From contig DASRCN010000067.1 in NCBI GenBank assembly GCA_035653075.1, positions 13,233-77,232 on the forward strand: DNA of 64,000 nt. Reading direction: 5' to 3'. The stretch is from Chthonomonadaceae bacterium. GTDB taxonomy: Bacteria > Armatimonadota > Chthonomonadetes > Chthonomonadales > Chthonomonadaceae. Numbering within the stretch: the first letter of the stretch is position 1; the number at the start of each line of letters is the position of its first letter. This document shows, piece by piece, positions 26,832 through 42,493 of this stretch. Both the position numbers and the translations under genes were made by a program. Below the pieces are notes generated by a model. The model searched no databases. It was not told the DNA's origin and worked only from the letters and a program-made list of their open reading frames with translations.

Positions 26832-28241
26832 ATGAGCGCAGAGAGCAAGCAGAGGGCGAGCGCGCGGCGCGTGGTCATCACGGGCGTGGGCGCGGTGACG
26901 GCGCTCGGCCAGACCGCCGAGTCGCTCTGGAAAGCATGCCTGGCCGGCTGCTCGGGAATCACGCCCATCAGCGGCTTCGACGTCAGCAACTACACGACCC
27001 GCTTCGCCGGGGAGATCAAGGAGTGGGACCCTTCCCCCTTCATGGACCGTAAAGAGGCGCGGCGGATGGATCGCTTCGTCCAGTTTGCGGTCGCGGCGGC
27101 TTCTATGGCGCTGGAAGATGCCGGGCTTCAGATCGACGACGGCAACCGGGACCGGATCGGCGTCTATATCGGCTCGGGCATCGGGGGCCTGGCGACCATC
27201 GAGGAGCAGCACAGGGTCCTGCTGGAGCGTGGGCCGGGCCGGATCAGCCCGTTCCTCATTCCGGGGATCATCTGCGATATGGGGGCCGGCATGGTCTCCA
27301 TCGTGACGGGCGCGCGGGGTCCCAATGCCTGCATCACGACGGCCTGCACCACGGGCACCAACAACCTGGGCGACGCCTACGAAGTCATCCGCCGGGGAGC
27401 CGCCGACGCGATGATCGCGGGCGGGGCGGAGGCGTGCATCACGCCGCTGGGCATGGCGGGCTTCTGCGCGGCCCGCTCGCTCTCGACTCGGAACGATGCC
27501 CCGGAGTGTGCCAGCCGTCCCTTCGATGCCGGCCGGGACGGCTTTGTGATGTCCGAAGGCAGCGGCATTCTGATCCTGGAAGAATTGGAGTCGGCCCTGG
27601 CGCGCGGCGCGAAGATCTATGCGGAGATCGTCGGCTACGGCATGTCGGGCGACGCGCATCACATCACGGCCCCGTCTCCCGAAGGCGAGGGCGCGGCCCG
27701 CGCGATGAAAGCCGCCCTGGAGAGCGCCGGCTTGCGGCCCGAAGACATCGACTATATCAACGCGCACGGCACCTCCACCGAGCTCAACGACAAAAACGAG
27801 ACGGCGGCGATCAAGGCCGTGCTCGGCGAGCATGCCTATCGGGTCCCGGTCAGCTCCACCAAATCCATGACCGGCCATCTCATCGGCGCGGCGGGCGCGG
27901 TGGAAGCCATTCTCTGCGCGCTGACCATTCGGGACAGTGTTCTCGCCCCGACCATCAACTACGAGACCCTCGATCCGGAATGCGATCTGGACTATGTTCC
28001 TAACGCGCCCCGCAAGGCCAACGTGCGTGTCGCCATGTCCAACTCCTTCGGTTTCGGCGGCCACAACGCCACCATCATTCTCAAGCGCCTGGAAGCCGGC
28101 GCGTCGCAGGTGTCGCTGTTAGAGGAGCGGGTTGCCGAATCGCCGGAAGCCGCAATCGACTTTGCGGGATTGGAAGAGGAAATCGAACTCGAAGCCCTCG
28201 TCCGGGACCTGGAGGAGGACGCCATAGCGCCCATACGTTAG
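26832..28241 (+). CDS. fabF: 3-oxoacyl-ACP synthase II (FabF) with an unusual roughly 55-aa acidic C-terminal extension
   Basis: Active-site context ...CTTGTNNLG (Cys in a TACTTG-like block). ...NAHGTST... and ...KSMTGHLIGAAG... motifs. Confidence 0.95.
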   Translation: MSAESKQRASARRVVITGVGAVTALGQTAESLWKACLAGCSGITPISGFDVSNYTTRFAGEIKEWDPSPFMDRKEARRMDRFVQFAVAAASMALEDAGLQIDDGNRDRIGVYIGSGIGGLATIEEQHRVLLERGPGRISPFLIPGIICDMGAGMVSIVTGARGPNACITTACTTGTNNLGDAYEVIRRGAADAMIAGGAEACITPLGMAGFCAARSLSTRNDAPECASRPFDAGRDGFVMSEGSGILILEELESALARGAKIYAEIVGYGMSGDAHHITAPSPEGEGAARAMKAALESAGLRPEDIDYINAHGTSTELNDKNETAAIKAVLGEHAYRVPVSSTKSMTGHLIGAAGAVEAILCALTIRDSVLAPTINYETLDPECDLDYVPNAPRKANVRVAMSNSFGFGGHNATIILKRLEAGASQVSLLEERVAESPEAAIDFAGLEEEIELEALVRDLEEDAIAPIR

Positions 28242-28258
28242 GGAAAAGGCAAAAGACG

Positions 28259-28774
28259 ATGGCACAATCGCTGCCCCATCCGATCCATCCCGGTAAAATG
28301 ACCTTCGAGGAGTTTATCCACTGGGGAGACGAAACCTCGTTTGCCGAATGGATCGATGGGGAAGTCGTCGAACTGCCCCTGCCTACCTGGCGGCATCAGG
28401 ATCAGGTAGGCTTCCTGATGGCTCTGCTGCGTACGTTTTCCGAAGAACACCGATTAGGTGAAGTTCTTTCCGTCCCCTTCCTGATGCGATTGCCGGTACG
28501 CCCCTCCGGACGCCGACCGGACATCATGTTCGTCGCCAATGAACATCTCCACCGCTTCAAAGAATACTATCTCGATGGCCCCGCCGATCTTATCGTCGAA
28601 ATCAGCCTAGCGGAAACTGAAGATTGGGATCGAAACGAAAAGCTTAACGATTATGCCCAGTCCGGCGTGCGTGAATACTGGCTGATACATTCAGAGCGCA
28701 ATCAGGCAGAGTTCTATCAACTTGGCGAGAACAATACCTATCGTCCTGTCTCCATCAATCAAGTAGAGACTTGA
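28259..28774 (+). CDS. Uma2-family (DUF820) putative PD-(D/E)xK endonuclease
   Basis: ...MTFEEFIHWGDE...AEWIDGEVVE... and ...DLIVEISLAETEDWDRNEKLNDYAQSGVREYWLI... match the Uma2/DUF820 family. Confidence 0.8.
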   Translation: MAQSLPHPIHPGKMTFEEFIHWGDETSFAEWIDGEVVELPLPTWRHQDQVGFLMALLRTFSEEHRLGEVLSVPFLMRLPVRPSGRRPDIMFVANEHLHRFKEYYLDGPADLIVEISLAETEDWDRNEKLNDYAQSGVREYWLIHSERNQAEFYQLGENNTYRPVSINQVET

Positions 28775-29345
28775 CGACCTTGTAGACATGAGTCCCTGGA
28801 AATGAAGGCCAGAGTTCGTTAGGGGCACTATCCAAATTCTTAGCCCGTTGAATTGCCTGTCGGATATAGGGCTTATAAGCATCGATATCAAGGTTCTTTT
28901 TGCTATAGCTACCCAATTGTGACCGCAGACGGCTTTCTATGGCTCTACAGTCTGTATCAGAAACTTCACAATCACCATGATGAAGCCAAAGCCAGAGCTC
29001 AAAACAAGGATTACTTACAGCCAACCCTATATTCATCTGATTGGCCTGTTTACAAACTGTCGCCAAGTTTTCAAGGGACCATCTATCTACATCGATCATA
29101 AGCCACAGTTTATCTTCTGGCCCAAGATTATACTCATCATGGAATAAGCTCAGTCTATCAAAGACATGCGCAGGGCTTGATTTCCCGTCTGGCCCCGTTG
29201 GTATGACCCTCACCTTGACACGCGGACTTTGGAAGATTGTGAAATATTGCCCCTCTGTCTTTTCGCCTTCGGTAGCGATTATATATAACCTAGCATCGCG
29301 GACGCTGTCTTGACGTTGCAGAAGTTTCGTGCGGTCAAGCTTCAT
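28755..29345 (-). CDS. RloB-like (Toprim/OLD C-terminal-like) protein; AbiLii-like partner of an AAA ATPase
   Basis: N-terminus LYIIATEGEKTEGQYF matches the RloB signature (hhhhcEGe+TE..YF). A DxD Toprim-type acidic motif (MIDVDRWS) is present. Translationally coupled (4-bp overlap) to the upstream AAA_21 ATPase. GC is about 45% against a roughly 63% background. Confidence 0.75.
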   Translation of the reverse strand: MKLDRTKLLQRQDSVRDARLYIIATEGEKTEGQYFTIFQSPRVKVRVIPTGPDGKSSPAHVFDRLSLFHDEYNLGPEDKLWLMIDVDRWSLENLATVCKQANQMNIGLAVSNPCFELWLWLHHGDCEVSDTDCRAIESRLRSQLGSYSKKNLDIDAYKPYIRQAIQRAKNLDSAPNELWPSFPGTHVYKVVKSLLD

Positions 29346-30745
29346 CTCTCCTCCCCTGACGCTGCCGAAGTCTTCTGATCGGACGGGACCCAGCCAAGAT
29401 TGCAGATATCGCCGATGAACGGAATAGCCCCAAAGCGGCCATTCAGATAGCCTTTTTCGATTTTTAGATCTGGACGGATTTTGAATTCCGCCAATGAGTA
29501 CATATGGGACGCCCCTGACAAATCCTTTTCGACAAACCAGATCTCATCGCGACGCAAAATATCCAAATCGAGTAGACTTGTTTCATGGGTTGTGAAAATA
29601 AGTTGACCTTTGTTTGCATGATCTTCGCAATCTAAAGCCGTTTGTAGAAACAAGCGCGACAGTAGTGGATGCAATCGACGATCTAGTTCGTCAATAATGA
29701 ATACTCTTTCACGGGCCTGCTTTAAGCTAAATAGCGCAGGAGTAAGATGCATGAGGCGTTGAGTCCCATCCGACTCTTCATCAATATCAAATTTAACAAG
29801 ACGGTTATCGCTAGTCCGATGCTGTGTTAGAAGACGAATAAAGGCAATTTGTCCTTCGGATCCATGAGTAATTAGATACCTGTCTCCTTCGGGTGTGTGT
29901 ATAAGCAGCCCACCACGGTCGCCAAGTTCTGATGCTTGCTGTAGAAGTTTGTCTTTGTATTCCTCTGGCATACCTGGAAAATACTGCTCAAAATTAGCCT
30001 CTACTTCCTCAGTCGTCAAACCATCTATGCCTGTTCCTGCCGCACGCAGAAATGTTCCCAGGAAATCCGTTAATTTCGACCTTGTGTGTATATAATGTTC
30101 AAGGGCCGCACTTTCTGAATCCGCAGGAATGACTATCAGCACGTCTTTAAACCATTGATAGATTGGAAGGATTTGTGCCACATTTCTATCTACTGCTTCC
30201 GTTAAGAAGAGTTGATTAGGCCGAGTTCCCTTCGCAACAAATGACAGGAACAGTTTCTGCTCCTGACCTTTGCCGGAGAAAGTAGCACCAAATTCTACCT
30301 TTACTTTATCCCCATCCGTTATACGCTCAAAGTAACGAAGCTCTTTTTTATTTGGAGTCGCATACAGCCATTCCTCCAGTATATGACTGGAGGTTAGCAC
30401 AAATCCATAAGAGTAGAGAACGCCTTCATGAGCAAAAATAAACTCAAATCTGCTCGGCCGCATGGTAGGCGTATCAAGCTTATAGGGAGAGATAGGAATT
30501 GTTTTGTTGCTGCGTGTACCCTTGATAATGAGATTCTGTGCAAACTGAATCGCCTTCACTACATTGGATTTCCCTGATGCATTAGCGCCATAAATGGCAG
30601 CAGCCCGTAATAGAGTTGGCACCTTGCTACTGTCGTCAGCAATCAGATGATCGGGATGGCGCTGATCATCCTTTATAGCTGCCATACTAAAGGTAGTCTT
30701 GTCTCTGAAAGATCGAAAATTTTCTACCGTAAATTGTACTAGCAT
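29342..30745 (-). CDS. AAA_21/ABC-type ATPase (OLD/AbiLi/RloA-like)
   Basis: Start MLVQFTVENFRSF with GAGGAG RBS. Walker A GANASGKSN, ABC-signature-like IIDELDRRLHP, D/H-loop region LIFTTHETSLLD. Low-GC island. Confidence 0.8.
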   Translation of the reverse strand: MLVQFTVENFRSFRDKTTFSMAAIKDDQRHPDHLIADDSSKVPTLLRAAAIYGANASGKSNVVKAIQFAQNLIIKGTRSNKTIPISPYKLDTPTMRPSRFEFIFAHEGVLYSYGFVLTSSHILEEWLYATPNKKELRYFERITDGDKVKVEFGATFSGKGQEQKLFLSFVAKGTRPNQLFLTEAVDRNVAQILPIYQWFKDVLIVIPADSESAALEHYIHTRSKLTDFLGTFLRAAGTGIDGLTTEEVEANFEQYFPGMPEEYKDKLLQQASELGDRGGLLIHTPEGDRYLITHGSEGQIAFIRLLTQHRTSDNRLVKFDIDEESDGTQRLMHLTPALFSLKQARERVFIIDELDRRLHPLLSRLFLQTALDCEDHANKGQLIFTTHETSLLDLDILRRDEIWFVEKDLSGASHMYSLAEFKIRPDLKIEKGYLNGRFGAIPFIGDICNLGWVPSDQKTSAASGEER

Positions 30746-30888
30746 TTGGCTCCTCGCTAACTTGCGTGTCTCGCACAATAAGATTATACCACGTTTCCAC
30801 GAGAATAGTTTGCTTTAGGAGAAAAAATCACGCAAAATGCCATTTTCCAGGCCAACTCCATTCATTTAGCTAAACGGGTAGAAACTAT

Positions 30889-30921
30889 GACAGCCGGGGT
30901 ATGAACGATACCCCGACTGTC
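30889..30921 (-). terminator. Hairpin (GACAGCCGGGGTAT-GAACG-ATACCCCGACTGTC) just downstream of the flotillin gene stop on the minus strand
   Basis: 14-bp stem with one G-U pair, followed on the minus strand by a T-rich stretch. Confidence 0.45.
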
Positions 30922-30950
30922 GTTTAGGTGTAGAGGTGTGTTATTGAATG

Positions 30951-33050
30951 TTAAGCCTTCGGCGTGGGAACGAGGTCCTTCTTGCCGTCCGCCTTGCCCG
31001 GCTTGGCGGGAGCCTGCGTTTCCACGATCGCCTCCACCGGAGCAGGCTGGCTGGGAGCGGACGGGCCGGGCGCGGTCAGCGCCTCCTGCAGGGCATTCAG
31101 GAAGGCCGGGTTCTCGGCCAGACTGCGCGCCACCTGCTCGGTCATCTCCGGGGTGACGCGGGCGGGATCGCCGCCGGTCACTTTGGCGAGGGCGGGCTGG
31201 AGCAGGCCGCCGATCTGGGAGATCAGGCTGCCGACCGCATCGCCGCTGCCTTTGCCGTTGCCCTCCGCCGGAATGTGGCCGTTGGAAGCAATGGCGCCAT
31301 TGGCCTGCGCGCCGTTGACGAAGCCTTCGACCATCGCTCGCAGCCCGAACCCTTTTGCCATGCTGTCCAGCATCGTCGTGGCCGTTTCCGGCGTGCCGTA
31401 AAGGGTCATGTGGCCGCTGGCCAGGAAGTTGGCTAACGCCTGCGCGAAGGCGATCTGCACGTCGCGGCTGGCCTGGATGGTCAGCTTCTGGATTTCGAGC
31501 TGGATACCGGCCTCAGCGAACTCCTGCCGGTTCTCCCACTGCTGGCGCTCGACGGCTACCTTCGCCTGCTCGACGTTGACCTGCTCGCGGGCCACGTCCA
31601 CTGAGACCATCTGCTGGGCCTTCTCGCCGCGCGCCACCAGCTCTTTGGCCTGCGCTTCCGCCTCGGCGAGCTGGCGCTTGGCCTCCGCCTGCTTGGCCGC
31701 CGCTTCCTGCTCGGCCTCCGCCTGCTTGACGCGGCTGTAGGCCTCCACGTCCGCCGTGGTCTGCTGGCGCAGCTTGCCCTGCTCAATCTCCTGGCGGGCG
31801 GCGATGAGCTTCTTGTTCGCCTCGCGGTCGGCTTCCGCCAACTGCGTCACCGTCTGCACCTGCTGGCCCGCCTTCTCGCGCTCGGCGGCGGCGCGCAGCG
31901 CCTCCTCCTCGGCTTTGGCGCGGGCCGCTTCCTGCTCGGCGATGGCGATCTGCTTCTGCCGCTCGGCCAGCGATACGCTCTTCTCGCGCTCGACCGTGGC
32001 GATCTGCACCTGCTGGTCCTTGGCGATCTGGGCGGCCTGCACCGCCTGCTCCTGCTGGGCGCGGGCGACCTCGACGACCTGCTGGCGGGCGATCTCCTGC
32101 GCCTGGACCTGCTTCTCCTTCTCGATCTTGGCCAGCTCGACCTGCCGTGCCTGAGTGATCTGTGCCTCCTGAGACTCCCGCTCTTTATCGGCGCGCACCT
32201 TGGCGATCTCGGTCGCCTGCTGCGCCTCGGCTTCGGCCTGCTTGCGCTCCAACTCCAGAATCTGCTGGCGCGTCTCCACGTCTTTGAGCTTGCGGGCGCG
32301 CTCGGCCTCCCGCTCCAGATTGTTGCGCTCAACGGCTGCCGCCGCGGTGATCTCGGTGATCTTGCGCTTGCCCTGCGCGTCGAAGACGTTGTTGTCGCTC
32401 AGCTCGCCCGGATCGGTCTGGTCGAGCTCGGAGATGGTCACCGACTCCAGCAGCAGACCGTTGGCTTCCAGGTCCGTCTTAACGTGCTCCTTGACCCGCT
32501 CGGCGAACTCGTCGCGCTTGGTGTGGATCTCGAACAGGTCCATCTGCGAGGCGATGGCGCGCAGCGCGGAAACCAGCTTCTCGCTTACCAGCGCCTCGAC
32601 CGCTTCGGCATTGACGCTGCTCTGGCCGAGGGAGCGCGCGGCATTCAGAATGTGCTCGGTATCGGCCTGTACGCGAATGTAGAACTGGGCCAGGACGTTG
32701 GCGCGCAGATTGTCGTGGGTGATCAACGCGTTCACCCCGCGCGGATTGACCCCCAGCTTCATCGTCTTGAGGTTGATCTCAAGAATGTTATGGAAGAACG
32801 GGAAGACATGAATGCCCCCGTCCAGTACGACCCGGCTGCCGCCCATGCCGGTCCGCACGAACGCCTGATCGGCGCTGGTGCGCCGGTAGAACGACATGTA
32901 GGTCAGGGCAAGTCCGATCAAACCCAATGCGGCGCCGGCGATACTGAGAATGAATCGCGTCGCTCCGGGCAAGGCAATCCCCATTTGGGCGCCGAACATG
33001 CCCAGAATCATCAAGGCGATGCCCACGAGAATAACAAAAAATGCTGCCAT
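30951..33050 (-). CDS. Flotillin-family protein (SPFH/band-7 domain plus long E/A/Q-rich coiled coil)
   Basis: N-terminal TM segment then SPFH domain (...VVLDGGIHVFPFFHNILEINLKTM...). Extended EA-repeat coiled coil (...EREAERARKLKDVETRQQILELERKQAEAEAQQATE...) typical of FloT/YuaG. Confidence 0.85.
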   Translation of the reverse strand: MAAFFVILVGIALMILGMFGAQMGIALPGATRFILSIAGAALGLIGLALTYMSFYRRTSADQAFVRTGMGGSRVVLDGGIHVFPFFHNILEINLKTMKLGVNPRGVNALITHDNLRANVLAQFYIRVQADTEHILNAARSLGQSSVNAEAVEALVSEKLVSALRAIASQMDLFEIHTKRDEFAERVKEHVKTDLEANGLLLESVTISELDQTDPGELSDNNVFDAQGKRKITEITAAAAVERNNLEREAERARKLKDVETRQQILELERKQAEAEAQQATEIAKVRADKERESQEAQITQARQVELAKIEKEKQVQAQEIARQQVVEVARAQQEQAVQAAQIAKDQQVQIATVEREKSVSLAERQKQIAIAEQEAARAKAEEEALRAAAEREKAGQQVQTVTQLAEADREANKKLIAARQEIEQGKLRQQTTADVEAYSRVKQAEAEQEAAAKQAEAKRQLAEAEAQAKELVARGEKAQQMVSVDVAREQVNVEQAKVAVERQQWENRQEFAEAGIQLEIQKLTIQASRDVQIAFAQALANFLASGHMTLYGTPETATTMLDSMAKGFGLRAMVEGFVNGAQANGAIASNGHIPAEGNGKGSGDAVGSLISQIGGLLQPALAKVTGGDPARVTPEMTEQVARSLAENPAFLNALQEALTAPGPSAPSQPAPVEAIVETQAPAKPGKADGKKDLVPTPKA

Positions 33051-33096
33051 AGTGTGCCTCCTCCTTTGAAGGCTATCGAACGTTGCGTGCAGGAGA

Positions 33097-33900
33097 TCAC
33101 CGGACGGAGTCGGGGATCTCCTCGACAATCAAACGACCTTGCGTATCCATGTCCACGACGATGGCCCGATGTCCTTTTTCGATCGGCGGATGGCCGGAAG
33201 GGACCCGGCACATTTCGTCGTGAAGCGTTCCGAAGGAATCATAGATATGAATGCGTCCGGCTTCCTCGCTTACCGGGAACGCGATCGCCCCGGTGAGGCC
33301 GAACAGCTCTTGCTGCGAGACGGCAAACGACTCTTCTTTGGGCAGGACGCGCGAAAGCAGCTCCGCCGCCAGCCGGGAGCCGACGATCCCACCTCCCAGA
33401 GCGATGCCCAGGGACGGCAGCATCTGCAGCAGCGATGGCGTGGGCGTGCGCACCAGAAACTCGTTGGCCCAGAAGCCGCACAGCCCCCAGGCGATGCAGA
33501 ACGCCTCCAGGACCATCGGCGCCGGAGCGCGCCCGAAGCCGAGCAGCCCCAGCAGCAGGCCCGCCGGGGTGATAATGTTCTCTTTGGTCCCATTCGCTGT
33601 CGGATGGGCTTTTCCTCCTGGCCGGGCCGCCGCGCCGTGCGGCTGCGCATGGCCGCCCGCCGTCGCCGTCGCGTGCCCGTGAGCAGGCCCGGCGTGCCCG
33701 CCTGCCGCATGCGCGCCATGCGGAGCCGCGTGGCCGTGAACGGCGGCGTGCCCGTGGGCGGCCACATGGCCGTGACCGCCAGGGCCGGTATGATGTCCCA
33801 GGCGCAGGGAGGAGAGCAGCAGCAGGAGCAGGGCCGTGCCGAGGGGAAGCAGGAAGATCAAATAGTGCCACTGCAAGAGCAGCGTTGCATCTGTCGTCAT
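33097..33900 (-). CDS. NfeD-family membrane protein (flotillin-associated, YuaF-like) with a His-rich low-complexity insert
   Basis: Directly upstream of and co-oriented with the flotillin gene (46-nt gap). TM helices plus C-terminal OB-fold-like segment (...RAIVVDMDTQGRLIVEEIPD). Contains HGHVAAHGHAAVHGHAAPHGAHAAGGHAGPAHGH. Confidence 0.65.
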   Translation of the reverse strand: MTTDATLLLQWHYLIFLLPLGTALLLLLLSSLRLGHHTGPGGHGHVAAHGHAAVHGHAAPHGAHAAGGHAGPAHGHATATAGGHAQPHGAAARPGGKAHPTANGTKENIITPAGLLLGLLGFGRAPAPMVLEAFCIAWGLCGFWANEFLVRTPTPSLLQMLPSLGIALGGGIVGSRLAAELLSRVLPKEESFAVSQQELFGLTGAIAFPVSEEAGRIHIYDSFGTLHDEMCRVPSGHPPIEKGHRAIVVDMDTQGRLIVEEIPDSVR

Positions 33901-34090
33901 AGCGTTATGACCTCCGGACCTCCAGCCCATTCTGGAGGTTCTCTTCCATTATACGCCTTGCTTTCGTAGCTTGCAATCTATTTCTTAACACATAACGTGT
34001 TAAATTCGTCACTGGTTGCATAAAATGCGAGGACGCTCAATCTGCGCCCGTTCAATCTTTGAGTTGCCTCCGTTTGCCTGTCGGCGCGGA

Positions 34091-34119
34091 TTGAAGATTG
34101 CTGGCCGATAGAGTATAAT
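34091..34119 (+). promoter_or_regulatory. Sigma70-type promoter TTGAAG-17-TATAAT giving a roughly 330-nt leader to the 34454 CDS
   Basis: Hexamers and 17-bp spacer counted directly. An inverted repeat TTAACAC-N5-GTGTTAA lies about 80 bp upstream (about 34007-34025). Confidence 0.4.
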
Positions 34120-34453
34120 GAGGGCAACTCGACTTTTACTATTCGCGCTATCATCCGCTTTTTCATCCTTCCGTAGCTAGCGCAAGGGGTGCGTTTTCCG
34201 GATCGAAGCTAGCGCAATCGGCGTGAACGCACCCAGGGAAGGCTGTTTTTCGGCTGTCGGCGGTGGCAGTCTGCGCAGGCGGGCCTGGTTCCGTGGTTGC
34301 AGCGACTCCAGCCGTCCGATGAAACCTGAAGCGCCCGGTAAGCCGGTTCCTTTGATATTGCTGCCTGCTTCCTTAGTCGGGAAGCATCGCGCGTGCAGTA
34401 GGAATCATAGCCGGCGCAAACCGTTTGGCAAGCACAATTTAGGAGAAAATCGC

Positions 34454-37400
34454 ATGAGTCATGACGAGCTCCCGCCGGACTCGGCGCCGGCCCGTCCCCT
34501 GGGGGACAGCGCCGCGGAGTCCAGGCCGGAAGCCTCTGCGCCGGAGACGCCACCTGCCGCGCCCGCGCGCCGTCGTCGCGGAAGGACGGCGGGGTCTGCC
34601 GCCGCCTCCCATCCCGCTCCCCCCGTTTCCGAACCACCCATTTCCGAGACACCCAAGCCGCGGCGCCGTCGCAAGGCGGCGGCGCCGGAAGAGGCCGCTG
34701 CGCCGCCGGTCGTAGAGAGCCGCGCACCTGCACAGGCGCCGGAGCCGGAAGCGCCCTCCCGGCGCCCGCGCGGCGGGCGCCGTACCTCCGGCAAGCAGCC
34801 GGAACAGGCGGCTGCGCCGCTGATAGAGAACGCCGCTCCAGCGCCGGAGACACCGGCCTCGAAAGGCCGCCGCGGCCGGCGCCGCAAAGCGGAGGCCGCC
34901 CCGGCTGCCGAAGCCGCTGTGGAGGCCATCTCCCCGATGCCCGAGACGCTTCCGTCGGCGCCTCCGGAAGAGGCGACACCTCCGGCCAAAACGCCGCGCC
35001 GCCGTCGTGGGCGCAAAGGAGCCGCGGAGAGCGCAACACCGGTCGAAGCCGTCTCCGCAGAGCTGGCCGCCGAGGCGATCTCCCCGCACGTCGAGCCGGC
35101 TCCGGAAGCGGAGCGTCCGGCAGGACGGCGCTCGCGCCGCCGTCGACCCGCCCGGGAGGCCGCGCCAGCGGCAGAGGCCCCGACTGCACTCCGACAAACG
35201 GAGCTGGGGCCGGCCTGGGAGACGGGTGAGCCGATGGCCTCCACCCCTGTGGAAGCCGCTACTCCCGCTGTCAAAGAGCCCTCGCGCCGTAGGCGGCGCG
35301 GAGAGCGCGCCCGCCGCGCCGAAGAGACCGTGGAAGCGCGGGCGCCGGAAGGCGAGGAGATCGAAGAGCGCATCGACCGCTCGGTCGGCGCGCACCTCCT
35401 CTCTCGCCACGGGATGCCCGAAATCCATATCGACGGCAAGCCTTTTCCGCCCATCCTGTTTTTCGGGAACATGGAGAGCGCGTCCAGCGCGCAGCGTGTC
35501 CTCTCGGAAGTGCGCCGCGCCGCCCGCGCCGGAGTCCACCTGCACTCGACTCTCATCGAGCTGCCCTGTCCGCTCACCGAAGCGACCGACGCCCTCGACA
35601 TCATCGACGACCGCCTGCGCGAGATCCTGGAAGCCGACCCGGAAGGCTACGTCATGCCGCGCCTGCTCTTTGTCCCCAGCCGCGGCTGGCGGCGCGAGTA
35701 CCCGACTGAGATCGCCACGTATGCCGACGGCACCACCGGCGATCCCTCCATCACCAGCGAGCGATTCTGGCAGGAGGCGGAGCGATCTCTGGTCGCCCTG
35801 ATCGAGCACCTGAGGATGTCCGAGTGGGGCCAGCGGGTCTTTGCCTTCCACCTGGAGCGCGGGGAGTGGTTCCAGCCGATGAGCACGGGCTACGACCGCA
35901 GCATGGCCAACCGCGAGGCGTTTCGAGACTGGCTGCGCGAGAGGTATAAGCACAACCTCGTCTCCCTGCGCGCCGCCTGGTACGACGGCAGCGTCCAGTT
36001 CCATACCGCCGAGATCCCCGCGATGCCCGCCAAGCCGAACCCGCAGCAGGCGTTCTACGAGCCGCGGCGGGAGCGACGCATCATCGATTTCCACGAGTTC
36101 ACCGCCGAGAGCACGGCCCGGCGGCTGGTCCAGTTGGCGAAAGTGGTCAAGAAGGCCACCAACAACACGGCGCTGGTATCGGTCTGCTACGGCTACACCT
36201 TCGAGTTCGGCCATCCCTTCAGCGGGCACCTGGCGCTGAACCTGTTGCTCGCCGCGCAGGCGATCAACCTGATCTGCGGCCCGCCCTCCTATCGCGACCG
36301 CAAACCCGGCGGCGCGGCCTCCTATCCTGCCCCAGTCGACTCGCTGCCGCTGCACGGCAAGCTGTGGCTGTCGGAAGACGATACCAAGACCTATCTGTCT
36401 CCTCCGAACCAGGACCCGGAAGACTTCAATCCACGCCTGAGCGACCGCTTCCTGACCGAGCAGGCGCAGGCGCGCGCCTTCGGAAAGGCGCTGGTGCATG
36501 AGGCCGGCATCAGTTGGATGGACCTGTGGGGCGAAGGCTGGCTCGACGGCGAGGAGATCTGGAACCGCCTGGTCGGCTATACGCAGACCTATGCAGCCTG
36601 GATGAAGCACCGGGAGCGAGCGCAGCCGCCCGAGGTGGTGGCGCTGATCGGGGAGAAGAGCCTGCTGCACATCCAGCGCGGCGAGGCCTTCTTCCGCAAG
36701 CTCACCAACGGCCTGCGCGAGGTGCTGCAGCGTGCCGGGGTCCACTTCGGCCTCTATCTTCAGAGCGACCTGCTGGCCAGGGATTTCCCGACCGACGCCA
36801 AGCTCTATCTCTTCCTGACGCCCTTTCGCATGCCGTCAGAACAGCGCGCGGCCATCAAAGAGAAGCTGCATCGCGGCGGCAAGACGCTCGTCTGGCTCTA
36901 TGCGCCCGGCGCCTGTGAGGAGCGGCCCGTCGCCGCGACCGGCATGGAGGAGGGCGTGACCGACGCCATCGGAATCGCGCTGCGGCAGCAGGAATGGAAT
37001 TCGGAGATCGGCTCGCGCATCATCGAGCCGTATCATACGATCACCGAGCGGCTGCCCAGCCGTGAGATCGGCGTGCGGGAGCGCCTGAACCCCTCCTTCT
37101 ACGTGGATGATTCGGACGCGATCATGCTGGCGGAATATCAGGGCTCGGGCTTGCCATCCCTGGCGGCCCGCAACTTCGGAACGTGGCAGTCGGTCTTCGT
37201 GGGCGAGCCCACCTTGCCGCTGGAGCTGCTGCGCGGCATCTGCCGCTATGCCGGCGTTCACGTCTGGACGCCGCAGGGCGATGACGTGGTGGAGATCGGC
37301 AACGGCTGGGTCATGATCCACGCCGCCCGCGACGGTCAGCGGACGCTGCAGTTGCCGGAGGTGACCGGACTCTACGACCTGACCGAGCGGCATTGGGTGG

Positions 37401-37942
37401 GCGGCGCAACGCGGGAGCATCGCTTTTTCCTGCGGGCCGGCGCGACGCGCCTCTTTGCCGTCGGCCCCACCGAAGAGCTGGTGCGGCGCGGCCTGCCGGA
37501 CATCCCGGCGCACGGCAAGGATCGCGCGCGCGCCGTCCTCGAACCGCCCAAAGAGCGTGAAGCGCCCCGCGAAATCCACGCGGACGAGGCGGTCCCGCCC
37601 CCTTCGCTGCGAGAGGATCTGGAGACGCTGGAGGCCATCCTGAAGATGGATGTAAGCCAGTTGGAGGACCTGGAGACGAACGGAGCGGAGATGTTCGAGG
37701 GCAGTAGGATCGAAGCGTCCGGGATTGAGGCGGCCGAGCCTCAGACGGAAACGCCGGGCGAGGTGACTGGAAACGGCCGCCGTCGCCGCCGGCGGGGCGG
37801 GCGCGGGCATGGGCGGCGCCGGCAGGGAAATGCCTCGGAGCTTGCCGAGGGGGCCGGATTGGAAATGAGCGCGCCTCCTACGCCGGAAGGTACGCCCTTC
37901 GACCCGGTCCACGAAGCGCCGCCGGACGGCTCGGAGGAGTAG
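34454..37942 (+). CDS. Large (1163 aa) protein: roughly 310-aa Arg/Pro/Ala-rich disordered N-terminal region with repeated RRRRGR(K) motifs, central GH42-like (beta-galactosidase-fold) domain, and a C-terminal poly-Arg tail
   Basis: Start chosen at ATG 34454 with AGGAGA RBS (the ORF track extends further upstream). Central region ...AFHLERGEWFQP...GYDRSMANREAFRDWLRERYKHNLVSLRAAWYDGSVQF... parallels the GH42 block (HIDNEYG...AFREWLKxKYGTxEALNxAWGTxFWS). N-terminus has at least 6 RRRRG-type motifs interspersed with PAPE/AAPA repeats. C-terminus has GNGRRRRRRGGRGHGRRRQG. Confidence 0.7.
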   Translation: MSHDELPPDSAPARPLGDSAAESRPEASAPETPPAAPARRRRGRTAGSAAASHPAPPVSEPPISETPKPRRRRKAAAPEEAAAPPVVESRAPAQAPEPEAPSRRPRGGRRTSGKQPEQAAAPLIENAAPAPETPASKGRRGRRRKAEAAPAAEAAVEAISPMPETLPSAPPEEATPPAKTPRRRRGRKGAAESATPVEAVSAELAAEAISPHVEPAPEAERPAGRRSRRRRPAREAAPAAEAPTALRQTELGPAWETGEPMASTPVEAATPAVKEPSRRRRRGERARRAEETVEARAPEGEEIEERIDRSVGAHLLSRHGMPEIHIDGKPFPPILFFGNMESASSAQRVLSEVRRAARAGVHLHSTLIELPCPLTEATDALDIIDDRLREILEADPEGYVMPRLLFVPSRGWRREYPTEIATYADGTTGDPSITSERFWQEAERSLVALIEHLRMSEWGQRVFAFHLERGEWFQPMSTGYDRSMANREAFRDWLRERYKHNLVSLRAAWYDGSVQFHTAEIPAMPAKPNPQQAFYEPRRERRIIDFHEFTAESTARRLVQLAKVVKKATNNTALVSVCYGYTFEFGHPFSGHLALNLLLAAQAINLICGPPSYRDRKPGGAASYPAPVDSLPLHGKLWLSEDDTKTYLSPPNQDPEDFNPRLSDRFLTEQAQARAFGKALVHEAGISWMDLWGEGWLDGEEIWNRLVGYTQTYAAWMKHRERAQPPEVVALIGEKSLLHIQRGEAFFRKLTNGLREVLQRAGVHFGLYLQSDLLARDFPTDAKLYLFLTPFRMPSEQRAAIKEKLHRGGKTLVWLYAPGACEERPVAATGMEEGVTDAIGIALRQQEWNSEIGSRIIEPYHTITERLPSREIGVRERLNPSFYVDDSDAIMLAEYQGSGLPSLAARNFGTWQSVFVGEPTLPLELLRGICRYAGVHVWTPQGDDVVEIGNGWVMIHAARDGQRTLQLPEVTGLYDLTERHWVGGATREHRFFLRAGATRLFAVGPTEELVRRGLPDIPAHGKDRARAVLEPPKEREAPREIHADEAVPPPSLREDLETLEAILKMDVSQLEDLETNGAEMFEGSRIEASGIEAAEPQTETPGEVTGNGRRRRRRGGRGHGRRRQGNASELAEGAGLEMSAPPTPEGTPFDPVHEAPPDGSEE

Positions 37943-39841: not shown

Positions 39842-40111
39842 TCAGGGCTGCCTTCCTGCTGCATCTGCCGCCTGCTGGATAGGCTCTGTTGCGCTCAAAG
39901 GCAAGCCGCGCTTCACGGAGCGTTCTTGCCGTGCCGCCTCCAACTGCTCCATGAAGTCGAGGATTTCTACGCTGATAACTCGGCCACTCTTATCGTAATC
40001 GACGATCACACCCTCTTCAATCTCCTCCGTATCCTCCACGGGCTCATCAAACAGATCGATCGAGAGAGCATCCACTTCTGGATCATAGCGAAGTCTCATG
40101 ACTGCCTCCAA
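39842..40111 (-). CDS. DUF2283 family protein (putative antitoxin of a DUF4258/DUF2283 pair)
   Basis: MRLRYDPEVDALSIDLFDEP...GVIVDYDKSGRVISVEILDF matches the DUF2283 pattern (YDxExDxLxI...DxDxxGxxxGIEIL). Overlaps the upstream DUF4258 gene by 16 nt. Confidence 0.65.
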   Translation of the reverse strand: MEAVMRLRYDPEVDALSIDLFDEPVEDTEEIEEGVIVDYDKSGRVISVEILDFMEQLEAARQERSVKRGLPLSATEPIQQAADAAGRQP

Positions 40112-40350
40112 TATTTTGCTTTCGTAGTCGGGTAGATGGTGACGACTACTGCCGGGTCGGTTCGGTCGTCTACTATCAAACGAAGCATCATGATTTTATT
40201 CCCTCTAACGAGGAGAGATTGATAGGTTTTACGCCCTTTCTTCGCGGGCAGAATTTGTTGCGGATGCTGCATGACCGCATCGATTTCCTCGGCGGTCACA
40301 TTGCGCTTGACCATCTCTTCCTGTGTATGATCAGAAAGAATATAGTTCAT
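40096..40350 (-). CDS. DUF4258 family protein (putative toxin)
   Basis: MNYILSDHTQEEMVKRNVTAEEIDAVMQHP...GRKTYQSLLVRGNKIMMLRLIVDD...VVVTIYPTTKAKYW matches the DUF4258 pattern (hTxHAxxRMxxRxIxxxEVxxVL...GRxxYQ...VVVTVY...KYW). Lies in an AT-richer islet. Confidence 0.65.
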   Translation of the reverse strand: MNYILSDHTQEEMVKRNVTAEEIDAVMQHPQQILPAKKGRKTYQSLLVRGNKIMMLRLIVDDRTDPAVVVTIYPTTKAKYWRQS

Positions 40351-40501
40351 CCGCTCCCTCTTGTTATACGATCTCTGGCAAACTATATAAGCACTGGTGA
40401 ATAGGAAATATCACGTTCAAACCAGCTCTTATTACGCAGTCTACGGACGAACAGATAATAAGATGCTGCTTAGCCTCATGTCAAGAAAGTCGGGTCCTTC
40501 C

Positions 40502-41416
40502 CTATAAGGAAGAGGTGTCGGTCAGGCGTATGGCCTCAAGGAAGGCGCGGACGGCGGCGCGGCGCGAGCGCGACTTCTTTACCAGCAGGCCCGCCGGGCG
40601 CAGAAAGGCGTCTTTTGCGGAGAGCGGCACGACGGCCAGCGTACCTTCCCGTGCTTCCTGCCGCACCGTGTTCTCCGGAACGAGCGCCACTCCGCTGCCG
40701 ATCTCCACCAGGTTCTTGATCGTCTCGATATTGTCGAAGGCTGCTACGATGCGGACGTTCACACTGGCGGCGCTGAGATGCGCGTCGATCAGCTTTCGGG
40801 TGGGAATGTCGTCGGCAAAGGCGATGAACGGCTGCCCTTCCAACTGCCGCAAAGGAATTTTTTGCTTTCGCGCCAGCGGATGCTCCGGCGCACAGATAAA
40901 GACCATCGCCTCCTCGCCGAACGGCGCGATCTCGATACCGCTTCTGGGCGTGGGGCAGGCGACGATTCCCACATCGACCGCGCCCGACAGCACGTCCTGA
41001 TACACTTTCCCTGTCCGGCTGTACTCCAGGTGAACGGAGATTTTCGGATGCGCGGCCAGAAACGGCTTGAGCCGGCCCGGCAGGGAGTGGAGGCCCACCG
41101 AATAGACCGTCGCCACATTCACCGTCCCGGCGGCCTCATCGGAAAGTCCGCGCAGGCGGGCATCCAGCTCCTGCATCTCGCTCAAGATCGGCTTGGCGCC
41201 CTCATAGAGAATCTGACCGGCCTCCGTCAGTTGGAGGCGACCTTTTCCCTTGCCCCGCTCGATCAACACATGGCCGTACTCCTGCTCCAGTGCGCGCAGC
41301 TTCTGGCTCACCGCCGATTGCGACAGGTAGCTCCGCTCCGCCGCCCGCGAGAACGACTGTGTCTCCACTAGATCGCAAAACAGCCTCAGTGTTCGCAACT
41401 CCATACTTTTCTCCAT
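40502..41416 (-). CDS. LysR-family transcriptional regulator, divergent from sdhCAB
   Basis: N-terminal HTH ...LRTLRLFCDLVETQSFSRAAERSYLSQSAVSQKLRALEQEYG... and a C-terminal substrate-binding domain. Confidence 0.9.
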   Translation of the reverse strand: MEKSMELRTLRLFCDLVETQSFSRAAERSYLSQSAVSQKLRALEQEYGHVLIERGKGKGRLQLTEAGQILYEGAKPILSEMQELDARLRGLSDEAAGTVNVATVYSVGLHSLPGRLKPFLAAHPKISVHLEYSRTGKVYQDVLSGAVDVGIVACPTPRSGIEIAPFGEEAMVFICAPEHPLARKQKIPLRQLEGQPFIAFADDIPTRKLIDAHLSAASVNVRIVAAFDNIETIKNLVEIGSGVALVPENTVRQEAREGTLAVVPLSAKDAFLRPAGLLVKKSRSRRAAVRAFLEAIRLTDTSSL

Positions 41417-41423
41417 AGACCGT

Positions 41424-41492
41424 GTCGTTTTAGCCGGGCAATGAATTACCCGTCTCTAGGGCCTTCGGCCAACCGCCCTGCGGGCGGAAAAG
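41424..41492. repeat. Dispersed intergenic repeat, family A copy (GTCGTTTTAGCCGGGCAATGAATTACCCGTCT..GGGCCTTCGGCC..CCGCCCTGCGGGCGGAAAAG)
   Basis: Contains a GGCC-UUCG-GCC tetraloop hairpin and a CCGCCC-TGC-GGGCGG hairpin. Lies in the LysR/sdhC divergent region. Confidence 0.5.
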
Positions 41493-41668
41493 CCGTTATC
41501 TCCTCTTTTGGTTTATTATTAGCCTTGCTTCTAATTCCTATCTTAACATTTCATTTCTCATTTCTGCAAGCTTGTGCCATACTATACGCATGGCGGTGTA
41601 GTGGCAACCAACATCGCAACCTTTTTGTACAATTCCCCTCAAGTGACGAGAGGATAGGGAGTGAGGGA

Positions 41669-42493
41669 ATGGCTGTTCAAACCGCGCCTGCGCCGCGTCC
41701 GACGACCCCGGAGTCGCCGCATCTGCCCAAAATCGCGCGCAAAGACGCCTGGTGGATCGGACCGCTCTGGTTCTTCGTGCTCTTCAGCGCCTTCGTCGTG
41801 TGGACCACCTTCCGTACCTTTCAGAACGCCTACTACGACTATCAGAACTATCTGTCGCCGTTCTATTCGCCGACCATCGTCGTTGGCTGGACGGTCCTGG
41901 GCTACCATATCTCGCCGGCCATCTGGATCCTGATCTTCCCGCTCTCCTTCCGGCTGAGCTGCTACTACTACCGCAAGGCCATCTACCGCTCTTACCTGGC
42001 CGATCCGCTGGCCTGCGCGGTCACGGAGCCGGCGCCGCTGGAGAAATCCCGCTTCAAGCGCTATATGGGAGAGCGCGGGTTCCCGCTCATTATCCAGAAC
42101 TTCCACCGCTTCGCCTTCTATGCCGCCGTCGTGTTCATCGTCATCCTCTGGTATGACACCGTCGAGGCCTTTCTTTTCTGGAACACGCCCACCGGCAACG
42201 GTATCCACTTCGGCATCGGCATCGGGTCGCTGGTGTTCCTGGTCAACATCCTGCTGTTGACCTGCTACACCTTCTCCTGTCACTCCTGGCGGCATCTGAT
42301 CGGCGGCACGGTGAACTGCTACTCCTGCTCCCTCGCCAACCGGACGCGCTACGGCATGTGGAAGAAGGTTACGTTTCTGAACGAGTGGCACGGCCTCTGG
42401 GCGATGCTGAGTCTCATCTCCGTCGGCCTGACCGATGTCTACGTCTGGCTCGTCGCCAGCGGCAGGATTACGGATTTTCACCTGTTGGGGTAG
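41669..42493 (+). CDS. sdhC: Succinate dehydrogenase/fumarate reductase cytochrome b membrane subunit (Bacillus-type)
   Basis: Five predicted TM helices with conserved His residues. Directly upstream of sdhA/sdhB. Start set at MAVQTAP (the ORF track begins upstream inside the repeat element). Confidence 0.8.
   Translation: MAVQTAPAPRPTTPESPHLPKIARKDAWWIGPLWFFVLFSAFVVWTTFRTFQNAYYDYQNYLSPFYSPTIVVGWTVLGYHISPAIWILIFPLSFRLSCYYYRKAIYRSYLADPLACAVTEPAPLEKSRFKRYMGERGFPLIIQNFHRFAFYAAVVFIVILWYDTVEAFLFWNTPTGNGIHFGIGIGSLVFLVNILLLTCYTFSCHSWRHLIGGTVNCYSCSLANRTRYGMWKKVTFLNEWHGLWAMLSLISVGLTDVYVWLVASGRITDFHLLG

What the first reader, a model, noticed from the sequence alone, without database searches (positions are those of the whole stretch)
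28755..30930. Low-GC island carrying an AbiL-like split OLD-type module (AAA_21 ATPase plus RloB/Toprim), a candidate anti-phage defence system
A two-gene, translationally coupled cassette sits on a roughly 2.1-kb segment whose GC (about 45%) is far below the genomic background (about 63%). It is wedged between the fabF/Uma2 genes and the flotillin operon terminator. The ATPase has Walker A GANASGKSN, an ABC-signature-like DELDRRLHP and a TTHE D-loop. The partner has the diagnostic RloB N-terminus (IIATEGEKTEGQYF) and a Toprim-like DxD motif. This ATPase-plus-Toprim split architecture is that of AbiL (AbiLi/AbiLii) and is related to OLD, Gabija and PARIS nucleases. In a presumably Armatimonadota/Planctomycetota-like host it is uncharacterised and clearly horizontally acquired.
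Basis: partly seen in the sequence, partly recalled or inferred. Interest (0 to 1): 0.75.

Follow-up and report, generated by a model that had tools for sequence, protein, structure and literature searches.

The report
Imported AbiL-type anti-phage gene pair
A 2.2-kb piece of foreign, low-GC DNA carrying a standard two-gene AbiL-type phage-defence module (an ABC ATPase plus an RloB/Toprim nuclease) replaced 0.3 kb between two housekeeping genes of a Chthonomonadaceae bacterium; the acquisition is well documented, but the system is an ordinary member of a very large known family.

Summary

**The genes.** Two translationally coupled minus-strand genes, joined by an ATGA overlap, encode a 467-aa ABC ATPase and a 196-aa RloB protein.
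- ATPase: Pfam AAA_21 3e-36; PADLOC AbiLi 5e-95.
- RloB protein: Pfam RloB 5e-35; PADLOC AbiLii 2e-21.
- The catalytic motifs are intact in both proteins.

**The acquisition.** Closer relatives of the host share 91-92% protein identity in FabF and flotillin. They carry fabF, a full-length Uma2 gene and flotillin with no cassette.
- DNA alignment places the foreign segment at 28764-30948 (2,185 bp, GC 0.447 against 0.62, z = -4.9).
- It replaces about 303 bp: the last 37 codons of Uma2 plus the native intergenic terminators.
- No mobility genes or flanking repeats are present.

**The family.** It is very large: 9,731 RloB clusters at 50% identity. It is strictly paired, with 21 of 22 viral contigs keeping the ATPase just upstream. 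It occurs on plasmids and prophages, including a lactococcal prophage pair annotated as abortive phage resistance proteins.

**Mechanism (inferred).** By analogy with PARIS and P2 Old, the ATPase probably senses infection and holds the Toprim nuclease, which on release cuts nucleic acid, possibly tRNA.

**Verdict.** New member of a known kind; modest interest.

The parts
28764..30948 (.). Foreign low-GC segment (2,185 bp, GC 0.447). It replaces about 303 bp of the ancestral Uma2 3' end plus the intergenic spacer.
   Evidence: blastn: window 27190-28763 aligns to L089 1-1574, and window 30949-34499 aligns to L089 1878-5410; L092 gives the same picture. GC z = -4.9.
29342..30745 (-). abiLi-like gene: a 467-aa ABC (Rad50/SMC/OLD-type) ATPase. 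Motifs: Walker A G53-K59-S60, Q-loop Q178, signature S325DGTQR330, Walker B D352-E353, D-loop D355, H-loop H387. An invariant C-terminal tail, R424..K431GYLNGRFGAIP442, follows.
   Evidence: Pfam AAA_21 3.1e-36. PADLOC AbiLi 5.4e-95. Invariant columns in A2 and A4. hhalign to P2 Old aligns the signature, Walker B and H-loop. AF2 model pLDDT 82.9; Foldseek top hits are Rad50, OLD 6p74 and SMC heads.
28755..29345 (-). abiLii-like gene: a 196-aa RloB/Toprim-type putative nuclease. Invariant residues include E26 just after strand 1, D85-x-D87 just after strand 3, and E31, D78, S111-N112, E116, H122, H186. The last two codons and the stop (28755-28763) lie in host Uma2-antisense DNA.
29342..29356 (-). 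Translational coupling: a GGGGAGGAG Shine-Dalgarno sequence (29356-29348) and the ATGA stop/start overlap (29345-29342).
   Evidence: Sequence read directly. The same 4-nt or short overlap is seen in L082, L086, L084 and L117.
30746..30948 (-). Imported 203-nt leader of the cassette. It holds a strong hairpin (30921-30889, 14 bp), an extended -10-like TGgTATAAT (30791-30783) and a GAGGAG Shine-Dalgarno sequence (30755-30750).
   Evidence: Hairpin dG -25.6 kcal/mol, z -6.3. The tool's sigma-70 scan found no full promoter, so the promoter is an inference. No Rfam match.
28259..28774 (+). Native Uma2-family gene, truncated by the event. Homology to full-length relatives (192-215 aa) stops at residue 168 (nt 28762), after which the ORF reads V-E-T-stop inside the insert.
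   Evidence: Pfam Uma2 2.4e-29, covering profile positions 1-153 of 172. Alignment A3. tblastn finds no trace of the missing C-terminus elsewhere in the window. Full-length Uma2 sits at the same locus in L089-L092.

Best explanation
This is an AbiL-family two-gene anti-phage (abortive-infection type) cassette that a Chthonomonadaceae bacterium acquired horizontally.

**Shown.** A 2,185-bp, 44.7%-GC fragment carries its own leader, an ABC-ATPase gene (abiLi-like) and a translationally coupled RloB/Toprim gene (abiLii-like). It replaced about 303 bp between the convergent Uma2 and flotillin genes. The event clipped 37 codons from Uma2 and removed the native terminators. No integrase, transposase or flanking repeats are present. 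Both proteins keep every catalytic motif of their families.

**Inferred, by analogy with PARIS (AriA/AriB) and P2 Old.** The ATPase oligomer acts as the infection sensor and holds the Toprim nuclease inactive. A phage cue, or a change in the ATPase cycle, releases or activates the nuclease. The nuclease then cuts nucleic acid in a metal-dependent way through E26 and D85-x-D87, and stops phage production at the cost of the cell.

The substrate is unknown. I favour RNA or tRNA over DNA for two reasons: lactococcal AbiL acts after phage transcription, and both AriB and P2 Old turned out to be tRNases.
For: **Family assignment.**
- Pfam AAA_21 and RloB hits.
- PADLOC AbiLi 5.4e-95 and AbiLii 2.3e-21, both stronger than the scores of a lactococcal prophage pair annotated 'abortive phage resistance protein' on the same models.
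- hhalign of the RloB alignment to that lactococcal ORF56 gives probability 97.6%, E 3e-12, with the TEG-E, DxD and SN..E.WL.LH motifs aligned.

**Catalytic competence.**
- Walker A, Q-loop, signature, Walker B, D-loop and H-loop are invariant in the ATPase and align with P2 Old.
- The fold is closest to Rad50, OLD and SMC heads.
- In the RloB protein, E26 follows strand 1 and DxD follows strand 3 of an alternating beta/alpha model. This is the Toprim signature described for RloB in PMC12065111.

**The two genes form one unit.**
- An ATPase-to-RloB pair with overlapping or abutting genes appears in unrelated neighbourhoods: L082, L084 (Anabaena), L086 (Capsulimonadaceae), L093, and an Agrobacterium plasmid where it sits next to a CBASS operon.
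- The same pairing holds in 21 of 22 IMG/VR viral contigs.

**Acquisition.**
- Empty-site relatives and exact junctions.
- GC and GC3 contrast.
- The nearest homologues are only 62-65% identical, and many named ones are cyanobacterial.

**Mechanistic analogy from the literature.**
- AbiL is grouped with PARIS as ABC ATPase plus Toprim; its mode of action is still open; its block falls 'after transcription' (PMC13064643).
- An AAA antitoxin paired with a TOPRIM_OLD toxin behaves as a toxin-antitoxin pair (PMC10440598).
- AriB is a tRNase (PMC12409363, PMC11464382).
- P2 Old is a tRNase (bioRxiv 10.64898/2026.07.10.737580).
Against: - No experiment exists for this clade or host. Defence activity, toxicity, trigger and substrate are all inferred.
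- The recombination altered the 3' end of the RloB gene: its last two residues and stop come from host DNA. Several homologues end at the same alignment column.
- One relative (L083) keeps an intact RloB gene behind only a 60-aa remnant of the ATPase. This is hard to reconcile with a simple picture of a lethal toxin held by a full ATPase.
- The cassette sits alone between housekeeping genes, not in a defence island.
Confidence: 0.8

Rival explanations
1. The pair is mainly a selfish toxin-antitoxin (addiction) module. The Toprim protein is a toxin and the ATPase its antitoxin, and the cassette persists because losing it kills the cell. Any phage defence would be incidental.
For: NetFlax places AAA (D29) proteins as antitoxins of TOPRIM_OLD and RloB-like toxins, and validated related pairs in toxicity-neutralisation assays (PMC10440598). 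The layout is compact and translationally coupled, with the putative antitoxin first. The pair is frequent on small plasmids: 183 plasmid records, many of them about 5-kb Klebsiella plasmids.
Against: The two readings do not exclude each other; PARIS is both. Here the cassette sits in the chromosome, with no replicon to stabilise. L083 keeps RloB with almost no ATPase, which is unexpected if RloB alone were lethal. Relatives lie next to CBASS and in prophage moron positions, which is typical of defence genes.
Confidence: 0.12
2. The cassette is an RloAB-like accessory of a restriction-modification system, or an OLD-like DNA-processing or repair nuclease acting on DNA ends, rather than a stand-alone abortive-infection system.
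For: RloB was named from ORFs linked to type I R-M loci in Campylobacter (PMC10440598, PMC12065111). The ATPase fold is closest to Rad50/SMC heads and OLD.
Against: No hsd or methylase gene lies next to the cassette. The flanks are fabF/Uma2 and flotillin/NfeD-like genes. The homologous cassettes examined are also self-contained two-gene units in unrelated contexts. The AbiLi model scores far above the AriA, GajA and PtuA models.
Confidence: 0.04
3. The cassette is a dead passenger. It was recently imported, but the junction that rewrote the AbiLii C-terminus, or the foreign promoter and codon usage, has inactivated it, so it has no function in this host.
For: The last two codons and stop of AbiLii are host-derived. 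GC3 of 0.40-0.44 in a host with GC3 near 0.8 implies poor codon adaptation. The tool's scan found no canonical sigma-70 promoter.
Against: Both ORFs are intact, with all invariant residues, a good Shine-Dalgarno sequence and start/stop coupling. Several homologues end at the same column as this AbiLii. The insert brings its own leader, with an extended -10-like box.
Confidence: 0.04

Closest known systems
AbiL (AbiLi/AbiLii) of Lactococcus lactis, as modelled in PADLOC and DefenseFinder
   Same: The architecture is the same: an AAA_21-type ABC ATPase followed by a small RloB protein on one strand. Both PADLOC models are hit strongly. The RloB alignment matches the lactococcal prophage proPhi7 ORF56 at 97.6% hhalign probability with the catalytic motifs aligned, and the ATPase is 29% identical over 95% of its length to ORF55. 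The C-terminal R..D....K.Y..G.FGA.P tail of the ATPase is also shared.
   Different: It is a distant clade, with about 23-31% identity to the lactococcal pair. Its nearest relatives are environmental and cyanobacterial sequences at 52-65%. It is chromosomal, with no plasmid or prophage context. The ATPase is 467 aa against 410 aa, with a longer insertion between the two ATPase lobes.
PARIS (AriA ABC ATPase plus AriB DUF4435/Toprim tRNase)
   Same: It has the same split layout of an ABC ATPase plus a separate Toprim-superfamily effector. The ATPase belongs to the same AAA_15/21 radiation (PADLOC AriA model 3.8e-35). PARIS is the best-understood model for how such pairs work.
   Different: The effector is RloB (PF13707), not DUF4435. 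No DUF4435 or Toprim_OLD hit appeared for any of the 38 family members, even at E <= 10. The AbiLi model outscores the AriA model by 60 orders of magnitude. The published review reports poor superposition of AbiLii on AriB. The trigger and substrate are unknown.
OLD-family nucleases (P2 Old, class 1; Gabija GajA, class 2)
   Different: ATPase and nuclease are separate proteins here. There is no GajB-like helicase or reverse-transcriptase neighbour. The RloB profile shows no detectable sequence similarity to the Old Toprim region.
RloA/RloB of Campylobacter type I R-M loci, and RloB-type effector domains of Menshen NsnC
   Same: It has the same Pfam RloB domain, with a conserved Glu after strand 1 and DxD after strand 3.
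   Different: There are no hsd genes and no Menshen NsnA or NsnB partners nearby. Here RloB is a stand-alone protein paired with an AbiLi-type ATPase.

Membership tests
AbiL (PADLOC/DefenseFinder sense) | A protein matching the AbiLi profile | tested here: met
   PDLC02335 AbiLi: E 5.4e-95, 316 bits, covering residues 6-468. This is a higher score than the lactococcal prophage ORF55 gets on the same model (4.4e-76).
AbiL (PADLOC/DefenseFinder sense) | A protein matching the AbiLii profile (RloB domain) | tested here: met
   PDLC02337 AbiLii 2.3e-21. Pfam RloB 4.7e-35, full length. hhalign to lactococcal ORF56: probability 97.6%.
AbiL (PADLOC/DefenseFinder sense) | The two genes are adjacent, on the same strand, with the ATPase first | tested here: met
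   ATGA overlap at 29342-29345. The same order is seen in all homologous loci examined.
AbiL (PADLOC/DefenseFinder sense) | Confers abortive-infection-type phage resistance | not testable with these tools
   This needs cloning and phage challenge. Only lactococcal AbiL has been tested (PMC13064643).
OLD-like ABC ATPase plus Toprim systems (broad class) | ABC ATPase with Walker A and B, Q-loop, signature and H-loop of the AAA_15/21 type | tested here: met
   Invariant motifs. hhalign to P2 Old E 9.4e-5. Foldseek hits to Rad50, OLD 6p74 and SMC at E 1e-10 to 1e-9.
OLD-like ABC ATPase plus Toprim systems (broad class) | Effector with a Toprim fold: Glu after strand 1, DxD after strand 3 | tested here: inconclusive
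PARIS | AriB effector with a DUF4435-type Toprim domain | tested here: not met
   Only RloB is found. There is no DUF4435 or Toprim_OLD hit in any of the 38 members at E <= 10, and no AriB model hit in PADLOC.
Gabija | Fused ATPase-Toprim GajA plus a UvrD-like helicase GajB | tested here: not met
   The proteins are split. GajA scores only 2.6e-5 on the ATPase. No helicase gene is adjacent.
RloAB of type I R-M loci | Embedded in or next to hsdR/M/S genes | tested here: not met
   The neighbours are fabF, Uma2, flotillin (Band_7) and an NfeD-like gene.
Horizontally acquired genomic islet | Absent from the orthologous site of close relatives, with atypical composition | tested here: met
   L089-L092 have the syntenic site without the cassette, and the junctions are mapped to the base. 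GC is 0.447 against 0.624, z -4.9. GC3 is 0.40-0.44 against about 0.8.
Classical mobile element (IS, integron, integrative element) | Integrase or transposase, terminal inverted repeats, target-site duplication, or a tRNA target | tested here: not met
   Only two ORFs lie in the insert. There are no flanking direct or inverted repeats beyond chance. At most a TGTTA microhomology is seen at the right junction. The event is a replacement with loss of 303 bp, not a simple insertion.

The most novel reading that the evidence does not exclude
The invariant C-terminal tail of AbiLi (R424..D426..K431-G-Y-L-N-G-R-F-G-A-I-P442) may be the element that binds and silences the RloB nuclease. It is conserved from this clade to Lactococcus, yet the monomer model predicts it with very low confidence (pLDDT <50; taken to mean unstructured). 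On this reading a short peptide, rather than the whole ATPase, would be the minimal antitoxin.

This would explain why one genome (L083) keeps an intact RloB gene preceded only by a 60-aa ORF that is exactly this tail. It would also give AbiL a latch mechanism distinct from the AriA-AriB cage of PARIS.
Probability: 0.15. Interest if true: 0.55.

Novelty: new member of a known kind. Interest (0 to 1): 0.3.

Why it matters
For defence biology this adds one more AbiL-family member, in a rarely studied phylum (Armatimonadota). It is not a new kind of system.

Its value is as a clean example. The pre-insertion state is preserved in sister lineages, so the event can be read to the base. A naked two-gene defence cassette, with its own leader and hairpin but no mobility gene, replaced the 3' end of a neighbouring gene and the native terminators.

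AbiL's trigger and substrate remain unknown in the literature I could search. The family is very large: nearly 10,000 clusters at 50% identity. The conserved motifs listed here (E26, D85/D87, and the ATPase C-terminal tail) are therefore reasonable targets for mutagenesis in any tractable homologue.

Tried and rejected
1. **NCBIfam scan of the three proteins.** No hits.
2. **PDB sequence searches.** Single sequences and the RloB profile gave nothing. The ATPase profile gave only weak P-loop and signature hits to PtuA, SMC and OLD.
4. **hhalign of the RloB alignment against P2 Old.** No similarity.
5. **Relaxed Pfam scan of 38 RloB members for DUF4435 or Toprim_OLD.** None found.
6. **Empty site in the three Chthonomonadales genomes from the genome collection.** Synteny ends after fabF, so they were uninformative beyond showing absence. 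The empty site came instead from looking up the nearest Uma2 homologues.
7. **Uma2 as part of the island.** Rejected. It is syntenic and has the same intermediate GC3 (0.58-0.60) in relatives that lack the cassette.
8. **Simple insertion into Uma2.** Rejected. The missing Uma2 3' end is nowhere in the window.
9. **Flanking repeats, tRNA-type targets, Rfam elements.** Nothing.
10. **Donor identification.** The closest homologues are unnamed metagenome contigs. Cyanobacteria are frequent among named homologues at 52-57% identity, but that does not identify the donor.
11. **Co-variation of AbiLi and AbiLii identities across viral loci.** Only weak (Spearman 0.45, p 0.04).
Full report
**1. The observation**

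The region holds two minus-strand ORFs. The upstream one is listed from a TTG at 30778. Three things point to the ATG at 30745 as the real start:
- a GAGGAG Shine-Dalgarno sequence lies at 30755-30750;
- all homologues begin with the same MLVQF(T/S)VENF N-terminus;
- an independent gene call on an identical Logan contig gives 467 aa.

NCBI's own annotation of the identical protein starts 20 residues too late, at 447 aa.

The downstream ORF (28755-29345, 196 aa) starts with an ATG that overlaps the upstream TGA as ATGA at 29342-29345. A GGGGAGGAG box precedes it.

The composition is clearly atypical:
- GC is 0.43-0.48 against 0.60-0.75 in the flanks.
- GC3 is 0.40 and 0.44 against 0.77-0.87 for the neighbouring host genes.
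- The 2,185-bp segment has GC 0.447. All other windows of that size in the 64 kb have mean 0.624, sd 0.036 and minimum 0.525, giving z = -4.9.
- It is the deepest GC trough in the window.

**2. What the genes are**

Family hits:
- The 467-aa protein hits Pfam AAA_21 (3.1e-36), and the 196-aa protein hits Pfam RloB over its full length (4.7e-35).
- Against PADLOC they hit AbiLi (5.4e-95) and AbiLii (2.3e-21). The AriA, PtuA and GajA models score far lower.
- NCBIfam has no model for either.

The ATPase, across alignments of 37 close and 7 more distant homologues, keeps invariant:
- Walker A: G53..G58-K59-S60
- Q-loop: Q178
- signature-like motif: S325-D-G327-T-Q-R330
- Walker B: D352-E353
- D-loop: D355
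- H-loop: H387

A profile comparison with P2 Old aligns exactly the signature, Walker B and H-loop block: ESDGTQR with GHGTQR, IIDELDRRLHP with FIDEPELYLHP, and FTTHE with ISTHS (E 9.4e-5).

An AlphaFold model of the ATPase (pLDDT 82.9) is most similar to Rad50 heads, the Thermus OLD nuclease 6p74 and SMC heads.

The RloB protein has these invariant residues: E26, E31, D78, D85, D87, S111, N112, E116, H122 and H186. Its model (pLDDT 86.5) is an alternating strand-helix domain. In it, E26 directly follows strand 1 (residues 19-25) and D85-V-D87 directly follows strand 3 (residues 79-84). That arrangement is the Toprim signature, and it has been described for RloB domains in the literature (PMC12065111; PMC10440598).

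My own independent tests of the fold were weak:
- Foldseek against the PDB found nothing significant.
- The profile comparison with P2 Old found nothing.
- PDB sequence searches found nothing.

I therefore treat 'Toprim nuclease' as well supported by motifs and the literature, but not proven here.

**3. Relationship to the named system**

A Lactococcus cremoris prophage (proPhi7) carries a two-gene pair annotated 'abortive phage resistance protein' at the moron position after the lysin gene. That pair hits the same two PADLOC models, with lower scores than the window proteins. Its small protein matches the RloB alignment at 97.6% hhalign probability, with the catalytic motifs in register. Its ATPase is 29% identical to the window's ATPase over 95% of the length.

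The cassette therefore meets every testable criterion for AbiL. It fails the criteria for three alternatives:
- PARIS: there is no DUF4435 domain.
- Gabija: the proteins are not fused and there is no helicase.
- R-M-linked RloAB: no hsd genes are nearby.

**4. How common the pair is, and whether it is one unit**

Family size:
- A profile of the RloB clade finds 9,731 cluster representatives at 50% identity with E <= 1e-3, 4,906 at <= 1e-10 and 588 at <= 1e-30, among 1.84 billion proteins.
- The ATPase search saturated at 8,000 candidates.

The ATPase-to-RloB pair recurs as a self-contained unit in unrelated neighbourhoods:
- an unnamed soil contig (L082);
- Anabaena sp. PCC 7108 (L084);
- a Capsulimonadaceae MAG (L086);
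- L093;
- an Agrobacterium plasmid, where it sits beside a CBASS operon (L117).

In addition, 183 plasmid records carry ATPase relatives, and 21 of 22 IMG/VR viral contigs with an RloB relative have the ATPase immediately upstream. In every host checked the cassette has lower GC than its flanks.

**5. How it got here**

The identical proteins are named as coming from a Chthonomonadaceae MAG.

Three Chthonomonadales genomes with FabF 75-81% identical keep fabH-fabD-fabG-acpP-fabF. They have different genes downstream and no cassette.

The decisive comparison came from the nearest Uma2 homologues. Contigs L089, L090 and L091, and L092, come from closer relatives:
- FabF is 92% and flotillin 91% identical at the protein level, and the DNA is 82-86% identical.
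- They carry acpP, fabF (469 aa), a full-length Uma2 (192 or 205 aa), a convergent flotillin, an NfeD-like gene and the same large downstream gene.
- Nothing lies between Uma2 and flotillin except a spacer of 150-190 nt.

blastn aligns window 27190-28763 to L089 1-1574, and window 30949-34499 to L089 1878-5410. So window 28764-30948 (2,185 bp) replaces L089 1575-1877 (303 bp). The replaced stretch is the last 37 codons of Uma2 plus the spacer with its GC-rich terminator hairpins.

Consequences of the event:
- Uma2 homology stops at residue 168, and the ORF then reads V-E-T-stop inside the insert.
- The missing Uma2 end is nowhere else in the window.
- The last two codons and the stop of the RloB gene are host DNA read in antisense. 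Several homologues end at the same alignment column, so the protein is effectively full length.
- The strong hairpin at 30921-30889 (dG -25.6 kcal/mol, z -6.3) belongs to the insert. It now sits 30 nt after the flotillin stop, where the native terminators used to be.

Uma2 itself has the same intermediate GC3 (0.58-0.60) in relatives without the cassette. It is a native neighbour, not part of the import.

The insert has no integrase, transposase, flanking repeats or tRNA. At most a TGTTA microhomology is seen at the right junction. The event looks like illegitimate or microhomology-mediated replacement.

The donor is unknown. The closest homologues are 62-65% identical and unnamed. Many named ones at 52-57% are filamentous cyanobacteria, whose GC would fit, but that is only suggestive.

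**6. Mechanism**

What is shown:
- an intact, coupled ATPase-nuclease operon with all catalytic residues;
- membership of a family whose lactococcal member gives abortive-type phage resistance;
- defence-typical contexts for relatives (CBASS neighbour, prophage moron, plasmids).

What is inferred is the working cycle. The held literature says that AbiL's mode of action has not been determined, and that AbiL is grouped with PARIS and P2 Old as an ABC-ATPase-plus-Toprim system (PMC13064643, PMC11464382, PMC12409363). A targeted search found no mechanistic study of RloB or AbiLii.

Known points from related systems:
- In PARIS, an AriA hexamer sequesters AriB until a phage protein triggers release, and AriB then cleaves tRNA.
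- P2 Old was recently reported to be a tRNase as well.
- Related AAA-plus-TOPRIM_OLD pairs behave as toxin-antitoxin pairs.
- Lactococcal AbiL is listed as acting after phage transcription, which fits a translation-level block better than DNA degradation.

I therefore propose sensor-ATPase sequestration of a Toprim nuclease that, once released, cuts RNA, probably tRNA. I give about 0.4-0.5 confidence to the sequestration and release scheme, and about 0.3 to tRNA as the substrate. That compares with about 0.9 for 'AbiL-family cassette, horizontally acquired'.

**7. Loose ends worth noting**

The ATPase ends in a tail, R424..D426..K431-G-Y-L-N-G-R-F-G-A-I-P442. It is invariant even in the lactococcal homologue, but the monomer model predicts it with pLDDT below 50. 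That pattern would fit a motif that folds only on a partner.

In one long contig (L083) the ATPase gene is reduced to a 60-aa ORF that is precisely this tail, followed by an intact RloB gene. It is a single case. It still suggests a testable idea: the tail may be the part that restrains the nuclease.

**8. Verdict**

It is a new member of a known and very abundant family, and routine defence-finder tools would call it automatically. The base-level reconstruction of the acquisition is good documentation. The open mechanism of AbiL gives the family some interest, but nothing here is surprising to a specialist. Interest 0.3.

Noticed in passing
L083:7822-8597: In a 1.56-Mb metagenome contig the AbiLi gene is reduced to a 60-aa ORF, directly after sucD. 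The ORF keeps only the conserved C-terminal tail (SLAEFNIRPELKVQKGYLNGRFGAIPF...). An intact RloB gene with E/DxD preserved follows, overlapping it by 4 nt. This could be an orphan nuclease that the cell tolerates, or the tail peptide may be enough to restrain it.
   Followed up: partly
window 29345-29476 (AbiLi residues 423-467): The AbiLi C-terminal tail motif R..D....KGYLNGRFGAIP is invariant from this clade to the lactococcal prophage homologue, yet it has pLDDT below 50 in the monomer model. It lies outside the Pfam AAA_21 domain. It may be a partner-binding element.
   Followed up: partly
window 28259-28774: The native Uma2-family endonuclease gene lost its conserved last ~37 residues (..DGIYxSxVLxGLWLKVDWLWQEPLP..) in the replacement event. 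Uma2 also matches the PADLOC candidate defence model PDC-S03 (1.3e-22). It has an intermediate GC3 (0.58-0.60) in all relatives, unlike the rest of the genome.
   Followed up: partly
window 28096-28241 (FabF residues 422-469): FabF carries a ~48-aa acidic C-terminal extension (..EERVAESPEAAIDFAGLEEEIELEALVRDLEEDAIAPIR). The extension is kept in the close relative L092 (469 aa) and is absent from more distant Chthonomonadales FabF proteins (421-425 aa).
   Followed up: no
window 29342-30745: The NCBI annotation of the identical protein (P0121, 447 aa) starts at Met21. This removes the conserved N-terminal strand MLVQFTVENFRSF. The 467-aa start at 30745 is supported by homologues and a Shine-Dalgarno sequence.
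   Followed up: yes
L117:1-5990 (Agrobacterium plasmid NZ_CP049222.1): The closest plasmid-borne AbiL-like pair (45% identity) lies immediately downstream of a CBASS operon (patatin-like phospholipase, DncV-like cyclase, ThiF/E1-like protein). Together they form a small defence island next to a HTH regulator and ParA.
   Followed up: no
window 34223-37942: A 1,239-aa protein has an N-terminal third rich in Pro, Ala, Arg and Glu, and no Pfam match. It is conserved at 77% identity in relative L089. Its function is unknown.
   Followed up: no
window 59001-60000, 40001-42000, 45001-46000: Other, milder GC dips occur at 0.50, 0.55-0.58 and 0.55. The first has a strong positive GC skew (0.24). They were not examined and could be further acquired or atypical segments.
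   Followed up: no
L082, L083, L084, L086 cassettes: In every host examined the AbiL-like cassette has lower GC than its flanks, by 4-10 points (20 points in the window). This suggests either frequent recent transfer or an intrinsically AT-biased composition for this gene pair.
   Followed up: partly
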